DNA of 48,542 nucleotides from a virus. Below the pieces are notes generated by a model, which was given only the letters and a program-made list of their open reading frames with translations, searched no databases and had not been told where the DNA came from. Positions 1,565 to 46,803 of this stretch are shown in pieces. Within the stretch, counting starts at the first letter, position 1, and each line of letters opens with the position of its first letter. The stretch is taken from positions 1-48,542 of IMG/VR virus record IMGVR_UViG_3300038545_000026, one strand, 5' to 3'. A program made the translations under genes and the position numbers.

Positions 1565-1645
1565 AAAACATTAAATACTAATTAATAGCAAATATTTAGA
1601 TTTAATTATACCGCTTAGTGTTTTACATTGGGCGGTTTTAAAACA

Positions 1646-1787
1646 CTCGGCAGACATCATAAATATTTATGGTAATGTGGGAACTCCTTTCGAGGAGGTC
1701 GTAAAGCGACCTAAGAACAAAAATAAAGTGATGTAACCTAGAAATAGGAAATGCGGTAAAATGCAGGTTCAACTCCTGCTGTCGAGA
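1646..1787 (+). ncRNA. tRNA-shaped structured RNA lacking an anticodon loop (candidate tRNA-like ncRNA)
   Basis: 7-bp acceptor-like stem 1646..1652/1780..1786. Adjacent GCAGG-TTCAACT-CCTGC arm (1763..1779) matches the T-arm consensus. Internal hairpins carry UUCG (1684..1697) and GAAA (1737..1748) tetraloops. The interval is ORF-free. Confidence 0.4.
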
Positions 1788-1808
1788 CAAAATTAAAACA
1801 ACAAAATT

Positions 1809-2135
1809 ATGACCTCACAAGAAGCAAAAACAAAACTAATTGCGCTCATTGTAAAAAATGGTGTAAATATACCTAGCTATCAAAACAGAGAGTTAGAGCA
1901 TTCACATAATAAATACGGTTCATGGTCATTGGATTTTGTGTTGAAATATGATGCTTATAAAAAGAATTATGTTTCTGCTACACATTTAAATCCAGAAGAA
2001 TATGACTTTGTTTTAAGTATTGAAGATGTTGAAGAAATTGAAGTGTATGTTAACAATGACCAGATTTTGCTCAATGACAAGGATTTAACAGAAATAGAGG
2101 AAGCAATATTAATTGCTTGTAATAAAGAATTATAA
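1809..2135 (+). CDS. hypothetical protein (108 aa)
   Basis: ORF track. Confidence 0.65.
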   Translation: MTSQEAKTKLIALIVKNGVNIPSYQNRELEHSHNKYGSWSLDFVLKYDAYKKNYVSATHLNPEEYDFVLSIEDVEEIEVYVNNDQILLNDKDLTEIEEAILIACNKEL

Positions 2136-2138
2136 CCA

Positions 2139-2447
2139 ATGGAAAAGAAAATACTAACAAAAAGACTAAAAAGAATTGAGATTGAGAAAGAGTTGAAATC
2201 TCATATAAAAGACGAGCTTTTGCCCAATGCTTTAAACGATATAGACTTGCATGTAAATAATTCTAACTTTAAAATTGAAGCATTTACAAAGGGAGACCCA
2301 ACGATAAAAAATATGATTCTAAATAAGTACTTTAGGTCAGAAGAGAACTTTAATAATTTTGTATCTTGGTTTGAAGCTATCATTGACCGACCAATGACAG
2401 ACGAAGAAAAACAAAGAGCAAGAAATAATTCAATAACTAAATTTTAA
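2139..2447 (+). CDS. hypothetical protein (102 aa)
   Basis: ORF track. Confidence 0.65.
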   Translation: MEKKILTKRLKRIEIEKELKSHIKDELLPNALNDIDLHVNNSNFKIEAFTKGDPTIKNMILNKYFRSEENFNNFVSWFEAIIDRPMTDEEKQRARNNSITKF

Positions 2448-7213: not shown

Positions 7214-7236
7214 GGCGGTTTTAAAACGAGAATATT

Positions 7237-7532: not shown

Positions 7533-7674
7533 TTGTTGCTAACGGAAAAGTATATGAAAAGTAGGGGATTAAAAGTAAGTGACGTTTATTGTGGCGATAA
7601 TTTTGCAGACGTGCAGATAGCTCCGATTCTCAATAAATTACCCCCTATTTTTTATATACATTGTTACCTATCTG
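7533..7674. repeat. Intergenic palindromic element (family member H)
   Basis: TTGTTGCTAACGG (7533..7545) and ATATACATTGTTACCTATCTG (7654..7674), followed by TTAAAAACCGCC. Confidence 0.6.
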
Positions 7675-9976: not shown

Positions 9977-10013
9977 AACTATCATATATCAACAATACTA
10001 GAAAAATCAACAC
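9977..10013 (+). repeat. 37-bp direct repeat, copy 1 (27-bp perfect core 9987..10013)
   Basis: AACTATCATATATCAACAATACTAGAAAAATCAACAC matches 17087..17123 at 35/37 positions. Ends 7 nt before the integrase ATG. Confidence 0.9.
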
Positions 10014-39205: not shown

Positions 39206-40225
39206 TTATGAGTTAGCTTGTACTGTTTTGAAAATATGGCTTTCGTTCGCTACATCAGTCCATGCTCCTTCTAAAGCATAAGTTAATGCAATTTCGTACT
39301 CATCAACAACGTCTTGAACGTTACCAGCAGAAGAGCTAGTATCTTTTACAGAACTTAAAATGTGAACATCTAAGTCATATCCGAATACTGGATCCATCAT
39401 TGTAGTAAACATACCAGTATTAGAACCAGCAGAACCATGACCTCTACGGTTTAATGGCTCATTCCAAGTTGTCATTCCTACTAATCCTCTTTCAAAAGCG
39501 AATAAAGTAGAATCTGCAGCAATTGTCATTTGCGGCTCTTCAACAAATGTACATCCAGGTAATTGATACTCTGTGTTATCAGCATTTGTACGACCATTTG
39601 CAGCTAACTTACGATAATCTGCAGCAGCTCTTTGGTCACCAATAATCATAGTGTTCATTTTGTTGTACTTATTCTTTGCTTGGGCAGATTTTACGAACTC
39701 AAATAAGAAATCTTTATTTGCTAACGTATTGTCATACTTATGATTTGTTGTATCAAAAGTCATAATACTGTTTGTAGCTACTTGCGAACGGTTAGTGTTT
39801 AACCATGCAATAATATCAGTTGATAAGTCTGTGTAAAGAGAAATCAACTTGTTCTTCATCTCGTACTGTAAGATGTTATCATAAGACAAACGGTTATCGT
39901 CAGCTTGCTTGTAAGATACTTTGAAAGTCTGTGTTTTACGTAAATACGTAATAGTCTTTGTGAAAGAATCAGGGAATGCTGCTGCTGCGTGTGTTGCAGA
40001 TTTAGCTGTTCCTGAAGCTGTGTAAACACGCTTGTTTAAATCCACCTTTGTAGGCTGTCTGTCTGACTGCTTTAATTCGTTTAAGTTTCTAAACAATGCT
40101 TGCTCTCCATCAAGTAAAACTCGTGTTGCAGAATGTTGAAAATCTCTAAACTCTCCAGCGTCAATAAGGGCATTACTCGCTTTAACAATTGCGTCAAGTC
40201 TTTGAGTATCCGTTAAATTTGGCAT
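39206..40225 (-). CDS. major capsid protein candidate (339 aa)
   Basis: Size and position after the scaffold-like gene. Codon-rich, highly expressed look. Confidence 0.65.
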   Translation of the reverse strand: MPNLTDTQRLDAIVKASNALIDAGEFRDFQHSATRVLLDGEQALFRNLNELKQSDRQPTKVDLNKRVYTASGTAKSATHAAAAFPDSFTKTITYLRKTQTFKVSYKQADDNRLSYDNILQYEMKNKLISLYTDLSTDIIAWLNTNRSQVATNSIMTFDTTNHKYDNTLANKDFLFEFVKSAQAKNKYNKMNTMIIGDQRAAADYRKLAANGRTNADNTEYQLPGCTFVEEPQMTIAADSTLFAFERGLVGMTTWNEPLNRRGHGSAGSNTGMFTTMMDPVFGYDLDVHILSSVKDTSSSAGNVQDVVDEYEIALTYALEGAWTDVANESHIFKTVQANS

Positions 40226-46311: not shown

Positions 46312-46729
46312 TTTTTTATATTTTAAAAAGTTCTTTGTTCTGTCAGGAGGTATCGCAAGTAACGAGAATAAATCTCTTCAAGTGTATCTTGCCACTCATC
46401 CTGTAAGGTAGGATAACACCAGTGATACCTATTCAACAAACACAACCATCTGACACTGGCTTACTAATGCTACCCTTATCTCGGGATGTTGTTACATATT
46501 CTGTTCATTAAATAGCAAAGAACTTTATTTTTTTTAACAACAAAGGCTTTCTTCATCTGACGTGTTTCTACGTACCTTTTGCAGACCTGTCTCTTCTATA
46601 ACGAGCTTTCATTGCTACTAGCTTAGTGTATTCGTTTTTTACGGCTAATTACATTGAAACGAAAAAACAATTTTGTAACTCCTCCTTTTCCATTTACACT
46701 AAAGCCATTACTAACCCTCTCTGTGGTTG

Positions 46730-46803
46730 TGGTCAATATTGGATTCGAACCAATGACCTTCGCATTATGAGTGCGCTGCTCTAACCAACTGAGCTAAAAG
46801 ACC
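46730..46803 (-). tRNA. tRNA with anticodon CAU (Met, or Ile2 if lysidine-modified)
   Basis: Minus-strand cloverleaf: GGTCTTT-TA-GCTC-AGTTGGTTA-GAGC-A-GCGCA-CTCATAA-TGCGA-AGGTC-ATTGG-TTCGAAT-CCAAT-ATTGACC-A. Two U-U mismatches in the acceptor stem (5:68, 6:67). No encoded CCA. Confidence 0.75.

What the first reader, a model, noticed from the sequence alone, without database searches (positions are those of the whole stretch)
1646..1787. tRNA-shaped RNA with canonical acceptor and T-arm but no anticodon loop
A 7-bp stem (CTCGGCA 1646..1652 with TGTCGAG 1780..1786, one G.U) is stacked directly on GCAGG-TTCAACT-CCTGC (1763..1779). That arm satisfies the tRNA T-arm consensus (G53, T54-T55-C56-R57-A58, C61), and it is followed by an unpaired A.

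The intervening 110 nt are not a tRNA body:
- a long arm closed by ACATCA/TGATGT (1654..1659 / 1729..1734)
- within that arm, a CTCCT-UUCG-AGGAG hairpin (1684..1697) and GGTCG-TAAAG-CGACC (1697..1711)
- then a CCTA-GAAA-TAGG hairpin (1737..1748) where the anticodon arm would sit

Stable tetraloops plus a tRNA-like acceptor/T domain recall bacterial and phage Y-RNA-like (YrlA) or other tRNA-mimic RNAs. No Ro/Rsr or RtcB gene is present here.

The 245-nt interval 1565..1808 has no ORF, and it is preceded by the GGCGGTTTTAAAA box.
Basis: partly seen in the sequence, partly recalled or inferred. Interest (0 to 1): 0.62.

Follow-up and report, generated by a model that had tools for sequence, protein, structure and literature searches.

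The report
Anticodon-less tRNA-shaped RNA cassette in phage
A marine Flavobacteriaceae phage carries, as a discrete insert between two early genes, a 142-base sequence that folds like a tRNA at its two ends but has no anticodon. It is most likely cut out by the host's tRNA-processing enzymes as a non-decoding tRNA mimic, but it has no relatives anywhere, so its function is only inferred.

Summary
At 1646-1787 (+), a 7-bp terminal stem stacks directly on a consensus T-arm. An 81-nt arm and a CCUA-GAAA-UAGG hairpin fill the body, and there is no anticodon loop.

Evidence that it is a real, discrete unit:
- The fold beats shuffles (z -3.45).
- The acceptor pairs hold at probability 0.76-0.82 in a 600-nt context.
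- GC is 41% against 14-24% in the flanks.
- Homology with relatives stops at 1645|1646 and resumes about 1792, so the insert equals the predicted RNA to within 5 nt.
- One relative has a 190-aa ORF at this site; another has nothing.

It is not a tRNA, tmRNA or YrlA. ARAGORN calls nothing, the Rfam tRNA score is 18.9 bits against a cut-off of 29, and the phage has no Ro, RtcB or CCA-enzyme gene. An attP tRNA fragment is unlikely: the 21-mer has no exact match in the GTDB genome contigs.

The closest analogue is phage T4 species 1 RNA (rnaC, 139 nt), which has the same topology but no detectable homology. The GAAA hairpin shares a 13-mer with the variable arm of marine Flavobacteriaceae tRNA-Ser(GCU).

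I found no homologue, so covariation cannot be tested.

Best reading: a tRNA-derived accessory RNA cassette, excised by RNase P and 3' processing. Its trans role is speculative. The scan has noted anticodon-less phage tRNA-like genes before on other DNA.

The parts
1570..1606 (+). AT-rich imperfect palindrome. It is the first half of a junction conserved in relatives.
   Evidence: It folds as a hairpin. The 77-nt stretch 1570-1645 is 97% identical in L086 and 82% in L085, although the flanking protein is only 62-63% identical.
1611..1645 (+). GC-rich 12-bp hairpin ACCGCUUAGUGU...ACAUUGGGCGGU followed by UUUUAAAACA. It contains the GGCGGTTTTAAAA box (1631-1643). It looks like a terminator or cassette boundary, and shared sequence with L086 ends at 1645.
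   Evidence: Region 1565-1645 has z -4.9. The box recurs at 7214, 7680(-), 8442 and 8598. The homology break falls at 1645|1646.
1646..1787 (+). The whole tRNA-shaped RNA unit, 142 nt. The predicted mature RNA has RNase P cutting 5' of C1646, and A1787 as discriminator.
   Evidence: MFE -39.0, z -3.45. GC is 40.8% against 23.5% and 14.3% in the flanks. It is the only descriptor hit in the window. The insert boundaries coincide with it.
1646..1652 (+). Acceptor stem, 5' strand: CUCGGCA.
   Evidence: 7 of 7 pairs with 1780-1786, including one G.U. Pair probability is 0.76-1.0 across contexts.
1654..1734 (+). Long arm in the place of the D arm plus anticodon arm. It is closed by ACAUCA(U)/(G)UGAUGU, and its interior is ill-defined.
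   Evidence: z -2.1 on its own. Alternatives lie within 2 kcal.
1658..1671 (.). Perfect 14-nt palindrome CATAAATATTTATG inside the long arm. It offers an alternative local hairpin or a possible DNA site.
   Evidence: Self-match in blastn. Pair probability is about 0.27.
1697..1711 (+). GGUCG-UAAAG-CGACC hairpin, the best-supported inner helix.
   Evidence: Pair probability is 0.85-0.98.
1684..1697 (+). CUCCU-UUCG-AGGAG hairpin. It is weak and competes with its neighbour for G1697.
   Evidence: Pair probability is 0.14-0.43.
1736..1748 (+). A-CCUA-GAAA-UAGG hairpin. This 13-mer is identical to the core of the variable arm of marine Flavobacteriaceae tRNA-Ser(GCU).
   Evidence: Pair probability is about 0.95. 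Of the 53 genome loci, about 45 carry tRNA-Ser(GCU) with GUACCUAGAAAUAGGUAC.
1749..1762 (+). Unpaired 14-nt linker AAAUGCGGUAAAAU. It contains a GG that could play the D-loop role at the elbow; this is inference.
   Evidence: Unpaired in both the MFE and the centroid structure.
1763..1779 (+). T-arm GCAGG-UUCAACU-CCUGC.
   Evidence: It meets the T-arm consensus. Rfam's tRNA model aligns it at high posterior probability. Only 0.21 such arms are expected per shuffled window.
1780..1787 (+). Acceptor stem 3' strand UGUCGAG plus discriminator A. No CCA is encoded; CAAAAUU follows.
   Evidence: The phage tRNA-Met and the host-family tRNA-Ser genes also lack an encoded CCA and are followed by CAA or CAAAAUUU.
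1809..2135 (+). Downstream 108-aa early ORF of unknown function. It is conserved in relatives that lack the RNA.

Best explanation
The element is a tRNA-derived, non-decoding, tRNA-shaped RNA gene. The phage carries it as an optional cassette in its early, rightward gene block.

Proposed mechanism:
1. It is transcribed as part of the early polycistronic RNA. This is inferred: no promoter of its own is visible.
2. The 12-bp coaxial acceptor/T-arm helix with a consensus T-loop is the minimal substrate for bacterial RNase P, which would cut between A1645 and C1646.
3. The 3' side is trimmed after A1787, and CCA is added by the host enzyme, as for the CCA-less tRNA genes of this phage and its host family.
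4. This releases a stable RNA of about 142 (+3) nt. As a by-product, the early mRNA is cut into an upstream part ending in the GC hairpin and a downstream part starting about 20 nt before the next ATG.
5. The RNA has no anticodon loop, so it cannot decode. With a tRNA-like acceptor/T 'top half' and a hairpin matching the host-family tRNA-Ser variable arm, it most likely acts in trans. It would mimic a tRNA, as a decoy or sponge, for a host factor that recognises tRNA bodies. Candidates are a tRNA-targeting defence nuclease, a modification or processing enzyme, or a type-II-tRNA-specific protein.

What is shown: the fold, the discreteness of the unit and its tRNA-like features. What is inferred: transcription, processing and the trans role.
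For: - **Fold:** It is reproduced by MFE and beats shuffles (z -3.45). Its key helices stay probable in long contexts.
- **Consensus features:** A perfect T-arm abuts a 7-bp acceptor. 24 of 1000 shuffled windows give such a hit, and only about 2% of positions would fit an ORF-free gap.
- **Strand and composition:** The T-loop consensus lies on the strand of the flanking genes. GC jumps to 41% against 14-24% in the flanks, which is typical of RNA genes in AT-rich genomes.
- **Discreteness:** Homology to relatives breaks exactly at the first acceptor base and resumes 5 nt after the discriminator. The same junction holds a 190-aa ORF in L086 and nothing in L085, as expected for an accessory, trans-acting cargo.
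- **3' trailer:** CAAAAUU resembles the trailers of the CCA-less host-family tRNA-Ser genes and of the phage tRNA-Met.
- **Host tRNA match:** A 13-mer is identical to the variable arm of marine Flavobacteriaceae tRNA-Ser(GCU).
- **Precedents:**
  - T4 rnaC is a 139-nt annotated stable RNA with the same topology.
  - RNase P processes other phage small RNAs (PMC11143913).
  - A 7-bp acceptor is a major RNase P determinant, and M. smegmatis YrlA is cut and CCA-tailed (PMC4201824).
  - Several tRNA-targeting defences are countered by phage tRNAs (PMC10264068, PMC11555353, PMC13056530).
Against: - **No homologue:** None was found anywhere, so not one covarying pair supports the fold and selection cannot be shown (details in the full report).
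- **No polymorphism:** All copies recovered are 100% identical.
- **Transcription uncertain:** A terminator-like hairpin with U4 sits 5 nt upstream, and no Bacteroidota TAnnTTTG promoter is nearby. Transcription of the element depends on read-through.
- **Ill-defined interior:** The inside of the long arm has several competing structures.
- **Circular 13-mer match:** I found the tRNA-Ser match by searching for that hairpin, so it is partly circular. The closest cultured relatives infect Polaribacter, which is not among the genera with that variable arm.
- **Serylation unlikely:** By recalled identity rules, the acceptor (C1-G72, U2-A71, C3-G70, A73) does not look like tRNA-Ser.
- **Multiple testing:** A per-window chance of about 1e-3 is not negligible across a scan of about 250,000 windows.
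Confidence: 0.42

Rival explanations
1. It is a purely cis-acting processing signal, a 't-element'. The tRNA-like fold exists only to recruit RNase P and the 3' tRNA endonuclease. They cut the early polycistronic RNA here, defining the 3' end of the upstream message and the 5' end of the downstream 108-aa ORF message. The excised piece has no function.
For: - It sits exactly between two ORFs: 5 nt after a hairpin and 21 nt before an ATG.
- Plant-mitochondrial t-elements work this way (PMC1920247, listed).
- RNase P cuts mRNAs and intergenic RNAs (PMC11143913).
- Earlier scan notes report tRNA-like minihelices between phage genes. These are leads only.
Against: - Relatives express the same downstream gene from the same junction without it (L085, L086, L087).
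- A processing signal needs only the minihelix of about 35-60 nt. Here 110 extra nt with GC-rich hairpins are kept.
- The element behaves as swappable cargo, equivalent to a protein-coding cassette.
Confidence: 0.2
2. It is a decaying relic of a type-II (Ser-like) phage tRNA gene. Its D and anticodon arms were overwritten by an insertion or rearrangement. It may still be processed, but it has no function.
For: - The 13-mer is identical to a tRNA-Ser variable arm.
- Odd or degenerate tRNA genes with the same hairpin exist in other phages: L097, L098, L099 and L103.
- It is a singleton with no conserved relatives.
- The interior is ill-defined.
Against: - The acceptor (7 of 7) and T-arm (consensus-perfect) are fully intact while the rest is unrecognisable. 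Neutral decay should hit both alike.
- Phage genomes are compact, and this phage keeps the 146-nt insert unchanged in at least 3 independent samples.
- The Rfam tRNA model finds no residual D or anticodon arm. ARAGORN run with intron options calls nothing at its standard relaxed threshold (-ps) and only implausible tRNAs with 131- and 200-nt introns at lower ones.
Confidence: 0.15
3. It is not an RNA gene. The pairing is chance on top of a DNA-level element, such as hairpin-rich cassette-boundary or recombination DNA, an operator, or an origin-like sequence, in a region where palindromes abound.
For: - The early region is full of palindromic junction elements, and the GGCGGTTTTAAAA box family lies next door.
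- The element contains a perfect 14-nt palindrome.
- 2.4% of shuffled windows give a T-arm plus acceptor, and the scan covers very many windows.
- The minus strand also folds fairly well (z -2.1).
Against: - The T-loop consensus is on the transcribed strand.
- The element shares no repeat with the other junction palindromes.
- The GC jump, the placement in an ORF-free gap and the exact coincidence of the insert ends with the acceptor ends are not expected by chance.
Confidence: 0.13
4. It is an attP-type fragment of a host tRNA gene (T-arm plus 3' acceptor) used for, or left over from, site-specific integration.
For: - Phage integration sites commonly carry tRNA 3' halves (general knowledge; tRNA fragments are discussed in PMC9897764, listed).
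- The phage has a small tyrosine recombinase about 8 kb away (notes).
- Rfam aligns only the 3' part to tRNA.
Against: - The 21-mer GGTTCAACTCCTGCTGTCGAG has no exact match in the representative genome contigs (185,579 bacterial and archaeal species by the tool's description), nor in IMG/VR as the 24-mer.
- A fragment does not need a perfectly complementary 5' acceptor strand 127 nt upstream.
- It is not next to the recombinase gene.
- The genome has direct terminal repeats, and the closest relatives lack the element.
Confidence: 0.04
5. It is a bacterial or phage Y RNA (YrlA) or a reduced tmRNA.
Against: - No TROVE or RtcB gene is present, and there is no GNCGAAN0-1G motif (motif from PMC4201824).
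- The topology is wrong for YrlA.
- ARAGORN and Rfam give no tmRNA or Y-RNA match even at E<=10.
- Position 3:70 is C3-G70, not G3:U70.
- At 142 nt there is no room for pseudoknots or a tag frame.
Confidence: 0.02

Closest known systems
Bacteriophage T4 species 1 RNA (rnaC; AF158101 70908-71046, annotated 'small, stable RNA')
   Same: - The size is almost the same: 139 against 142 nt.
- The order of parts is the same. The 5' and 3' ends pair into an acceptor-like stem, followed by a long irregular hairpin, a second hairpin, and a consensus T-arm (CCGGG-UUCGAAU-CCCGG) just before the 3' strand.
- Both give only a sub-threshold Rfam tRNA-clan match and have no Rfam family of their own.
- Both are phage-encoded, and neither has an anticodon loop.
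   Different: - There is no detectable homology. The model built from this element scores rnaC at 10 bits, E 1.7.
- T4 rnaC lies in a tRNA gene cluster. This element lies alone among early ORFs, 3.4 kb across the genome ends from the single tRNA-Met, on the other strand.
- Here the acceptor is perfect (7 of 7). By my reading of the sequence, rnaC has U.U mismatches there.
- The function of rnaC is, to my knowledge, still unknown, so the analogy explains nothing mechanistically.
t-elements of plant mitochondria, and other RNase P-cleaved tRNA-like structures in mRNAs (PMC1920247; PMC11143913)
   Same: An acceptor plus T-arm module lies between coding regions. It can direct the tRNA end-processing enzymes to cut a longer transcript.
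   Different: t-elements are small, mostly just the minihelix or a tRNA remnant. This element carries a 110-nt structured body, and relatives with the same junction lack it.
Type-II tRNA-Ser(GCU) of marine Flavobacteriaceae (e.g. Psychroserpens, Algibacter, Winogradskyella; loci L106-L158)
   Same: It shares the 13-mer ACCUAGAAAUAGG, a GAAA-capped hairpin lying 5' of the T-arm. It has a 7-bp acceptor, a 5-bp T stem and a 7-nt T loop. It encodes no CCA and has a similar 3' trailer.
   Different: There is no D arm and no anticodon arm. 14 nt separate the hairpin from the T arm, against 1 in the tRNA. The T-arm and acceptor sequences differ, and the discriminator is A rather than G. The Rfam tRNA score is 18.9 against a cut-off of 29.
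YrlA / bacterial Y RNAs (PMC4201824)
   Same: It is a non-decoding RNA with a tRNA-like T-arm, and a 7-bp acceptor could make it an RNase P and CCA-enzyme substrate, as for M. smegmatis YrlA.
   Different: There is no Ro60 neighbour and no GNCGAA motif. The acceptor is formed by the RNA's own ends instead of a closed stem-loop. There is no Rfam match.
Odd phage tRNA-like genes with the same CCUAGAAAUAGG hairpin (IMG/VR loci L097/L102, L098, L099, L103)
   Same: They have an acceptor plus T-arm, the identical 12-mer hairpin where the anticodon arm should be, and a 9-23-nt linker to the T-arm. ARAGORN does not call them as normal tRNAs.
   Different: They are tRNA-sized (79-92 nt), and two pass the Rfam tRNA cut-off (41 and 37.7 bits). 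They lack the 81-nt arm. I found them by searching for that 12-mer, so the shared hairpin is ascertainment, not evidence of kinship.

Membership tests
tRNA (Rfam RF00005) | 7-bp acceptor stem stacked on a 5-bp T stem with a 7-nt T loop (G53, T54, T55, C56, R57, A58, C61). | tested here: met
   Sequence, fold and the Rfam alignment of the T-arm and 3' acceptor.
tRNA (Rfam RF00005) | D arm, plus a 5-bp anticodon stem with a 7-nt loop carrying U33 and an anticodon. | tested here: not met
   An 81-nt irregular arm and a 4-bp GAAA hairpin take their place. ARAGORN finds nothing at its default and standard relaxed (-ps) thresholds. With intron options at lower thresholds (-ps80, -ps70) it returns only two implausible calls with 131- and 200-nt introns.
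tRNA (Rfam RF00005) | Score at or above the gathering cut-off (29 bits). | tested here: not met
   18.9 bits, E 0.23 in a 401-nt search. Nothing reaches the gathering threshold there.
tmRNA | Detection by ARAGORN or the Rfam tmRNA models; G3:U70 alanine identity pair; tag reading frame and pseudoknots. | tested here: not met
   No tmRNA call and no Rfam tmRNA match at E<=10. Position 3:70 is C-G. 142 nt leaves no room for pseudoknots.
YrlA / bacterial Y RNA | Encoded within about 4 kb of a Ro60 (TROVE) gene on the same strand (PMC4201824). | tested here: not met
   No TROVE domain in the complete phage genome, and no RtcB either.
YrlA / bacterial Y RNA | [quoted passage not shown] | tested here: not met
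   No CGAA occurs in 1646-1787. The RNA's own ends form the acceptor. No Rfam Y-RNA match.
T4 species 1 RNA (rnaC)-like phage tRNA-like stable RNA | About 140 nt; ends paired into an acceptor-like stem; two non-tRNA hairpins; consensus T-arm next to the 3' strand. | tested here: met
   Folds of both RNAs compared.
T4 species 1 RNA (rnaC)-like phage tRNA-like stable RNA | Sequence or profile homology to rnaC. | tested here: not met
   Model R1 scores rnaC at 10.2 bits, E 1.7.
T4 species 1 RNA (rnaC)-like phage tRNA-like stable RNA | Lies within a phage tRNA gene cluster. | tested here: not met
   The only tRNA, tRNA-Met at 46729-46803 (-), lies about 3.4 kb away across the terminal repeat. T4 rnaC abuts tRNA-Arg and rnaD.
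T4 species 1 RNA (rnaC)-like phage tRNA-like stable RNA | Accumulates as a stable, end-processed RNA in infected cells. | not testable with these tools
t-element / RNase P-directed mRNA punctuation | tRNA-like acceptor/T module placed between coding regions of one transcript. | tested here: met
   It lies between ORFs 1370-1564 and 1809-2135 on the same strand.
t-element / RNase P-directed mRNA punctuation | Transcript ends map to the borders of the tRNA-like module. | not testable with these tools
   No RNA data are available.
attP / tRNA gene fragment | Exact identity of 20 nt or more with the 3' end of a host tRNA gene. | tested here: not met
   0 matches of the 21-mer in genome contigs. 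0 matches of the 24-mer in IMG/VR.
attP / tRNA gene fragment | Adjacent to the integrase gene. | tested here: not met
   The flanking ORFs are small proteins of unknown function. The recombinase noted by earlier readers starts near 9977.

The most novel reading that the evidence does not exclude
The RNA is an anti-defence decoy. It would be a processed, CCA-tailed, uncleavable tRNA look-alike whose acceptor/T domain and tRNA-Ser-type variable-arm hairpin let it occupy a host factor. That factor could be a tRNA-targeting immune nuclease or a type-II-tRNA-specific protein. With no anticodon loop, it offers nothing to cut. A phage integron-like cassette system would carry it as a swappable cassette. 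It would then be the first RNA cargo of such a system, and it would suggest a function for the T4 species 1 class of RNAs.
Probability: 0.08. Interest if true: 0.8.

Novelty: new variant of a known kind. Interest (0 to 1): 0.42.

Why it matters
Phage-encoded tRNA look-alikes that cannot decode have been known since T4 species 1 RNA, and none has a function assigned.

This one has three useful properties:
- **Clean and discrete:** Its borders are defined to within 5 nt by comparison with relatives that carry a protein gene, or nothing, at the same junction.
- **Accessory cargo:** That comparison marks it as optional, not as a housekeeping signal.
- **Copies host sequence:** It carries a hairpin identical to one in a host-family tRNA-Ser.

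If it is expressed and processed, it would be a simple system for asking what non-decoding tRNA mimics do in phage infection. The candidates are mRNA punctuation, enzyme sponging and defence decoy. It would also show that the cassette junctions of these Flavobacteriaceae phages move RNA genes as well as protein genes.

If it is not expressed, it shows how easily a tRNA-like 'top half' can arise or persist as a relic.

Tried and rejected
**Homologue hunts, all negative**
- 800 nt against cultured phage records.
- Exact and degenerate patterns in IMG/VR: T-arm plus acceptor 24-mer, inner hairpins, long-arm 19-mer, and a tetraloop-receptor pattern.
- The junction pattern in IMG/VR and in metagenomes gave only chance hits in a CoA-ligase-like gene.
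- nhmmer and blastn against 80 related loci.
- A single-sequence covariance model R1 against:
  - 83 loci;
  - Polaribacter phages P12002L and P12002S;
  - five Flavobacteriaceae genomes, where only coding-sequence noise appeared.
- A protein-word search with the antisense 50-aa ORF.
- Contigs carrying homologues of both flanking ORFs. The 314-nt gap in L170/L172 is unrelated.

**Other ideas rejected**
- *tRNA with an intron.* ARAGORN with -i calls nothing at the standard relaxed setting (-ps). At lower thresholds it gives only spurious calls with 131- and 200-nt introns.
- *Host assignment by DNA matches.* A search of 401 Flavobacteriaceae genomes gave only short matches.
- *A promoter of its own.* There is no TAnnTTTG box and no better-than-chance sigma-70 site.
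- *GAAA tetraloop docking into an 11-nt receptor* (UAUGG 1668-1672 / CCUAAG 1710-1715). The motif halves are present, and a compatible fold is only 1.8 kcal above the MFE. But the required GG/CC pairs have probability 0.02, and no homologues exist to test it. I keep it as speculation only.
- *Serylation by SerRS.* I judge this unlikely because the acceptor and discriminator differ from tRNA-Ser. This rests on recalled identity rules and was not tested.

Full report
**Setting**

The window is a complete 48.5-kb phage genome with direct terminal repeats. Its GC content is about 32%.

Its closest cultured relatives are Polaribacter phages P12002L and P12002S, genus Incheonvirus, with a large terminase 76% identical in amino acids. 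Genes run rightward up to about 20 kb and leftward beyond that.

The finding lies in the rightward block of small early ORFs. It sits between a 64-aa ORF (1370-1564) and a 108-aa ORF (1809-2135). Neither ORF matches any Pfam or PHROG family.

RNAfold finds them without guidance. They are:
- a 7-bp terminal stem;
- a long arm closed by ACAUCAU/GUGAUGU;
- a CCUA-GAAA-UAGG hairpin;
- a 14-nt single strand;
- the T-arm, abutting the 3' strand of the terminal stem.

The energy is -39.0 kcal/mol against -26.9 +/- 3.5 for dinucleotide shuffles, which gives z -3.45. The opposite strand folds less well, at z -2.1.

The domain is autonomous. Embedded in 600 nt of context, the acceptor pairs keep probability 0.76-0.82, the T-arm 0.6-0.9 and the GAAA hairpin about 0.95.

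The inside of the long arm is not well defined. A perfect 14-nt palindrome (1658-1671) offers a competing local hairpin. Several alternatives lie within 2 kcal.

**Is it more than chance?**

I wrote a descriptor for a consensus T-arm followed directly by a 3' strand that pairs 7 of 7 (at most one G.U) with a 5' strand 96-320 nt upstream of its end.
- The window gives one hit, this element.
- 24 of 1000 dinucleotide shuffles of the window give at least one hit.
- In about 0.8 Mb of other phage loci held at that point, only two more elements matched, both in the tRNA cluster of a large phage.
- Only about 2% of positions would let a 142-nt element fit inside an ORF-free gap.

The element's GC is 40.8%, in the top 4% of the genome. 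The 81 nt before it and the 21 nt after it have 23.5% and 14.3%. The T-loop consensus lies on the strand of the neighbouring genes.

Taken together this is unlikely to be chance. The scan covers very many windows, though, so chance cannot be dismissed on statistics alone.

**The strongest new evidence: it is a discrete insert**

Homologues of the downstream ORF, at 54-63% amino-acid identity, were found on three other contigs. I compared the same junction in each.

| Contig | Left of the site | At the site |
|---|---|---|
| L086 | The 77 nt before the element (AT-rich palindrome plus GC hairpin ending GGCGGTTTTAAAACA) are 97% identical | A 190-aa ORF |
| L085 | The AT-rich half is kept, with a different hairpin | Nothing; the ORF follows directly |
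| L087 | Not compared | Homology on the right resumes at AATTAAAAC, 5 nt after the discriminator A1787 |

In L086, identity with the window ends exactly at 1645. The next base, C1646, is the first base of the acceptor stem.

So the sequence specific to this phage is 1646 to about 1791. That is the predicted RNA to within 5 nt. The site takes alternative cargo.

The GGCGGTTTTAAAA box also recurs at cassette-like gene boundaries at 7214, 7680(-), 8442 and 8598. Earlier notes on this genome read those as integron-like cassette junctions. I did not re-test that claim.

**What it is not**

- **tRNA or tmRNA.** ARAGORN calls neither here at its default or standard relaxed threshold, with or without intron options. 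Only at lower thresholds does it return two implausible tRNA calls with 131- and 200-nt introns. Rfam has nothing at gathering thresholds. At E<=10 it gives only an 18.9-bit tRNA match covering the T-arm and 3' acceptor, against a cut-off of 29.
- **YrlA.** It fails on every defining feature I could take from PMC4201824. There is no TROVE gene, no GNCGAA motif, and the wrong topology. The phage also lacks RtcB and a CCA-adding enzyme.
- **An attP-type tRNA fragment.** This is unlikely. The 21-mer spanning the T-loop and 3' acceptor has no exact match in the representative genome contigs (185,579 species). A fragment would not need a matching 5' strand. The recombinase gene is about 8 kb away.

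**What it resembles**

*1. T4 species 1 RNA.* T4 rnaC is annotated as a small stable RNA of 139 nt in the T4 tRNA cluster. It folds into the same order of parts: paired ends, a long hairpin, a second hairpin, then a consensus T-arm just before the 3' strand. It likewise gets only a sub-threshold Rfam tRNA-clan match. There is no detectable homology: my model scores rnaC at 10 bits. This is an analogue, not a relative.

*2. Host-family tRNA-Ser.* I searched for the GAAA hairpin followed by a T-loop.
- In IMG/VR this gave 9 loci.
- In bacterial genomes it gave 53 loci.
- About 45 of those 53 are one gene, tRNA-Ser(GCU) of marine Flavobacteriaceae such as Psychroserpens, Algibacter, Winogradskyella, Lacinutrix and Maribacter.
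- Its variable arm is GUACCUAGAAAUAGGUAC. The element shares the 13-mer ACCUAGAAAUAGG.

The 81-nt arm then stands in for the D and anticodon limb.

Three cautions apply. The match was found by searching for that hairpin. The T-arm and acceptor sequences differ. Polaribacter is not among the genera hit.

*3. Odd tRNA-like genes in other phages.* Four other phage loci (L097/L102, L098, L099, L103) carry 79-92-nt odd tRNA-like genes with the same 12-mer at the anticodon-arm position. They show that anticodon-less tRNA look-alikes recur in phages. Their shared hairpin is an ascertainment effect.

**No homologues, no expression data**

Eight IMG/VR scans, two genome scans, one metagenome scan and the other homologue searches listed under Tried and rejected found no second version of this RNA.

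All copies recovered from other samples are 100% identical over several kb.

A terminator-like hairpin with four U sits 5 nt upstream, and no promoter is evident. The RNA would therefore have to come from read-through of the early transcript.

**Mechanism I commit to**

*Shown:* a discrete, GC-enriched, autonomously folding insert with a perfect acceptor/T-arm 'top half' on the sense strand.

*Inferred from established properties of the tRNA-processing enzymes:*
1. RNase P cuts 5' of C1646. The role of a 7-bp acceptor as a determinant is stated in PMC4201824. Other phage small RNAs as substrates are listed in PMC11143913.
2. The 3' end is trimmed and CCA-tailed, as for the CCA-less tRNA genes of the phage and host family.
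3. A stable RNA of about 145 nt is released, and the early mRNA is severed at this point.

*Speculative:* the RNA acts in trans as a tRNA mimic or decoy. I prefer this over a pure processing signal for two reasons. Relatives run the same junction and downstream gene without it, and it carries 110 nt more than a processing signal needs. tRNA-targeting defences, and phage tRNAs that counter them, give a plausible arena (PMC10264068, PMC11555353, PMC13056530). Nothing here links the element to any of them.

**Verdict**

This is a real and tidy feature, and most likely a tRNA-derived, non-decoding RNA gene. It is a new, non-homologous variant of the T4 species 1 / tRNA-like-element kind, not YrlA. 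Its function is unproven.

Interest is moderate. Such elements are not rare in phages: the scan has noted several on other DNA (these are leads only). This one is a singleton. Its sharply defined borders, cassette context and host-tRNA-like hairpin make it a good experimental handle.

Noticed in passing
window 1570-1645; L086 159-235; L085 749-828: The 77-nt junction (AT-rich palindrome plus GC hairpin) is 97% identical in L086, although the neighbouring proteins are only about 62% identical and the upstream genes differ. At the same site the window carries the RNA, L086 a 190-aa ORF with no family match, and L085 nothing. It looks like a recombination hot spot for cassette exchange.
   Followed up: partly
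L089 (IMGVR_UViG_2974600762_000001) 2028-2144(-) and 1828-1971(-): A 142-kb phage's tRNA cluster holds two long tRNA-like genes that ARAGORN does not call. One is 116 nt and Leu(UAA)-like, with a region of about 45 nt where the variable arm should be. The other is 143 nt, with a 7-bp acceptor and a consensus T-arm but no recognisable body. The second is the same size class as this element and T4 rnaC.
   Followed up: partly
L097 6161-6240(+), L102 (same element), L098 1712-1795(-), L099 1199-1291(+), L103 5788-5876(-); also L141 (Bacteroidia MAG): These are tRNA-sized genes (79-92 nt) from unrelated phages. A CCUA-GAAA-UAGG hairpin occupies or interrupts the anticodon arm. Three of them share GUGUAAYGG in the D region. 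Rfam scores two above the tRNA cut-off, and ARAGORN reports 'tRNA-??? (ccta)' for one. They could be a family of non-decoding tRNAs or an artefact of the search pattern.
   Followed up: partly
window 1668-1672, 1710-1715 and 1741-1744: Both halves of the classic 11-nt GAAA-tetraloop receptor (UAUGG and CCUAAG) lie in the long arm in the right orientation, and a GAAA tetraloop is nearby. A receptor-compatible fold is 1.8 kcal above the MFE, but it is not favoured by thermodynamics alone.
   Followed up: partly
L168 (a Flavobacteriaceae genome, G338:C1:3513625-3516804): A homologue of the upstream 64-aa ORF (71% nt identity) is a stand-alone gene with a textbook Bacteroidota promoter (TTTG ... 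TATCTTTG) and a terminator. It lies in a bacterial chromosome a few hundred nt from a tRNA 3' fragment, perhaps the edge of an integrated element.
   Followed up: no
window 7644-7669: A 26-nt stretch has 100% matches in many separate Flavobacteriaceae genomes. It probably belongs to the palindromic junction repeats that earlier notes describe.
   Followed up: no
window 39307-39323 (-): A third T-arm-consensus match (AACGTTCAAGACGTT) lies inside a coding region with no acceptor partner. It is probably chance.
   Followed up: no
window 46729-46803 (-) and 1646-1787 (+): Contigs that run across the window's ends place the phage's only tRNA (Met, CAU) about 3.4 kb from the tRNA-like element, on the opposite strand. 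The two flank the divergent early control region.
   Followed up: no
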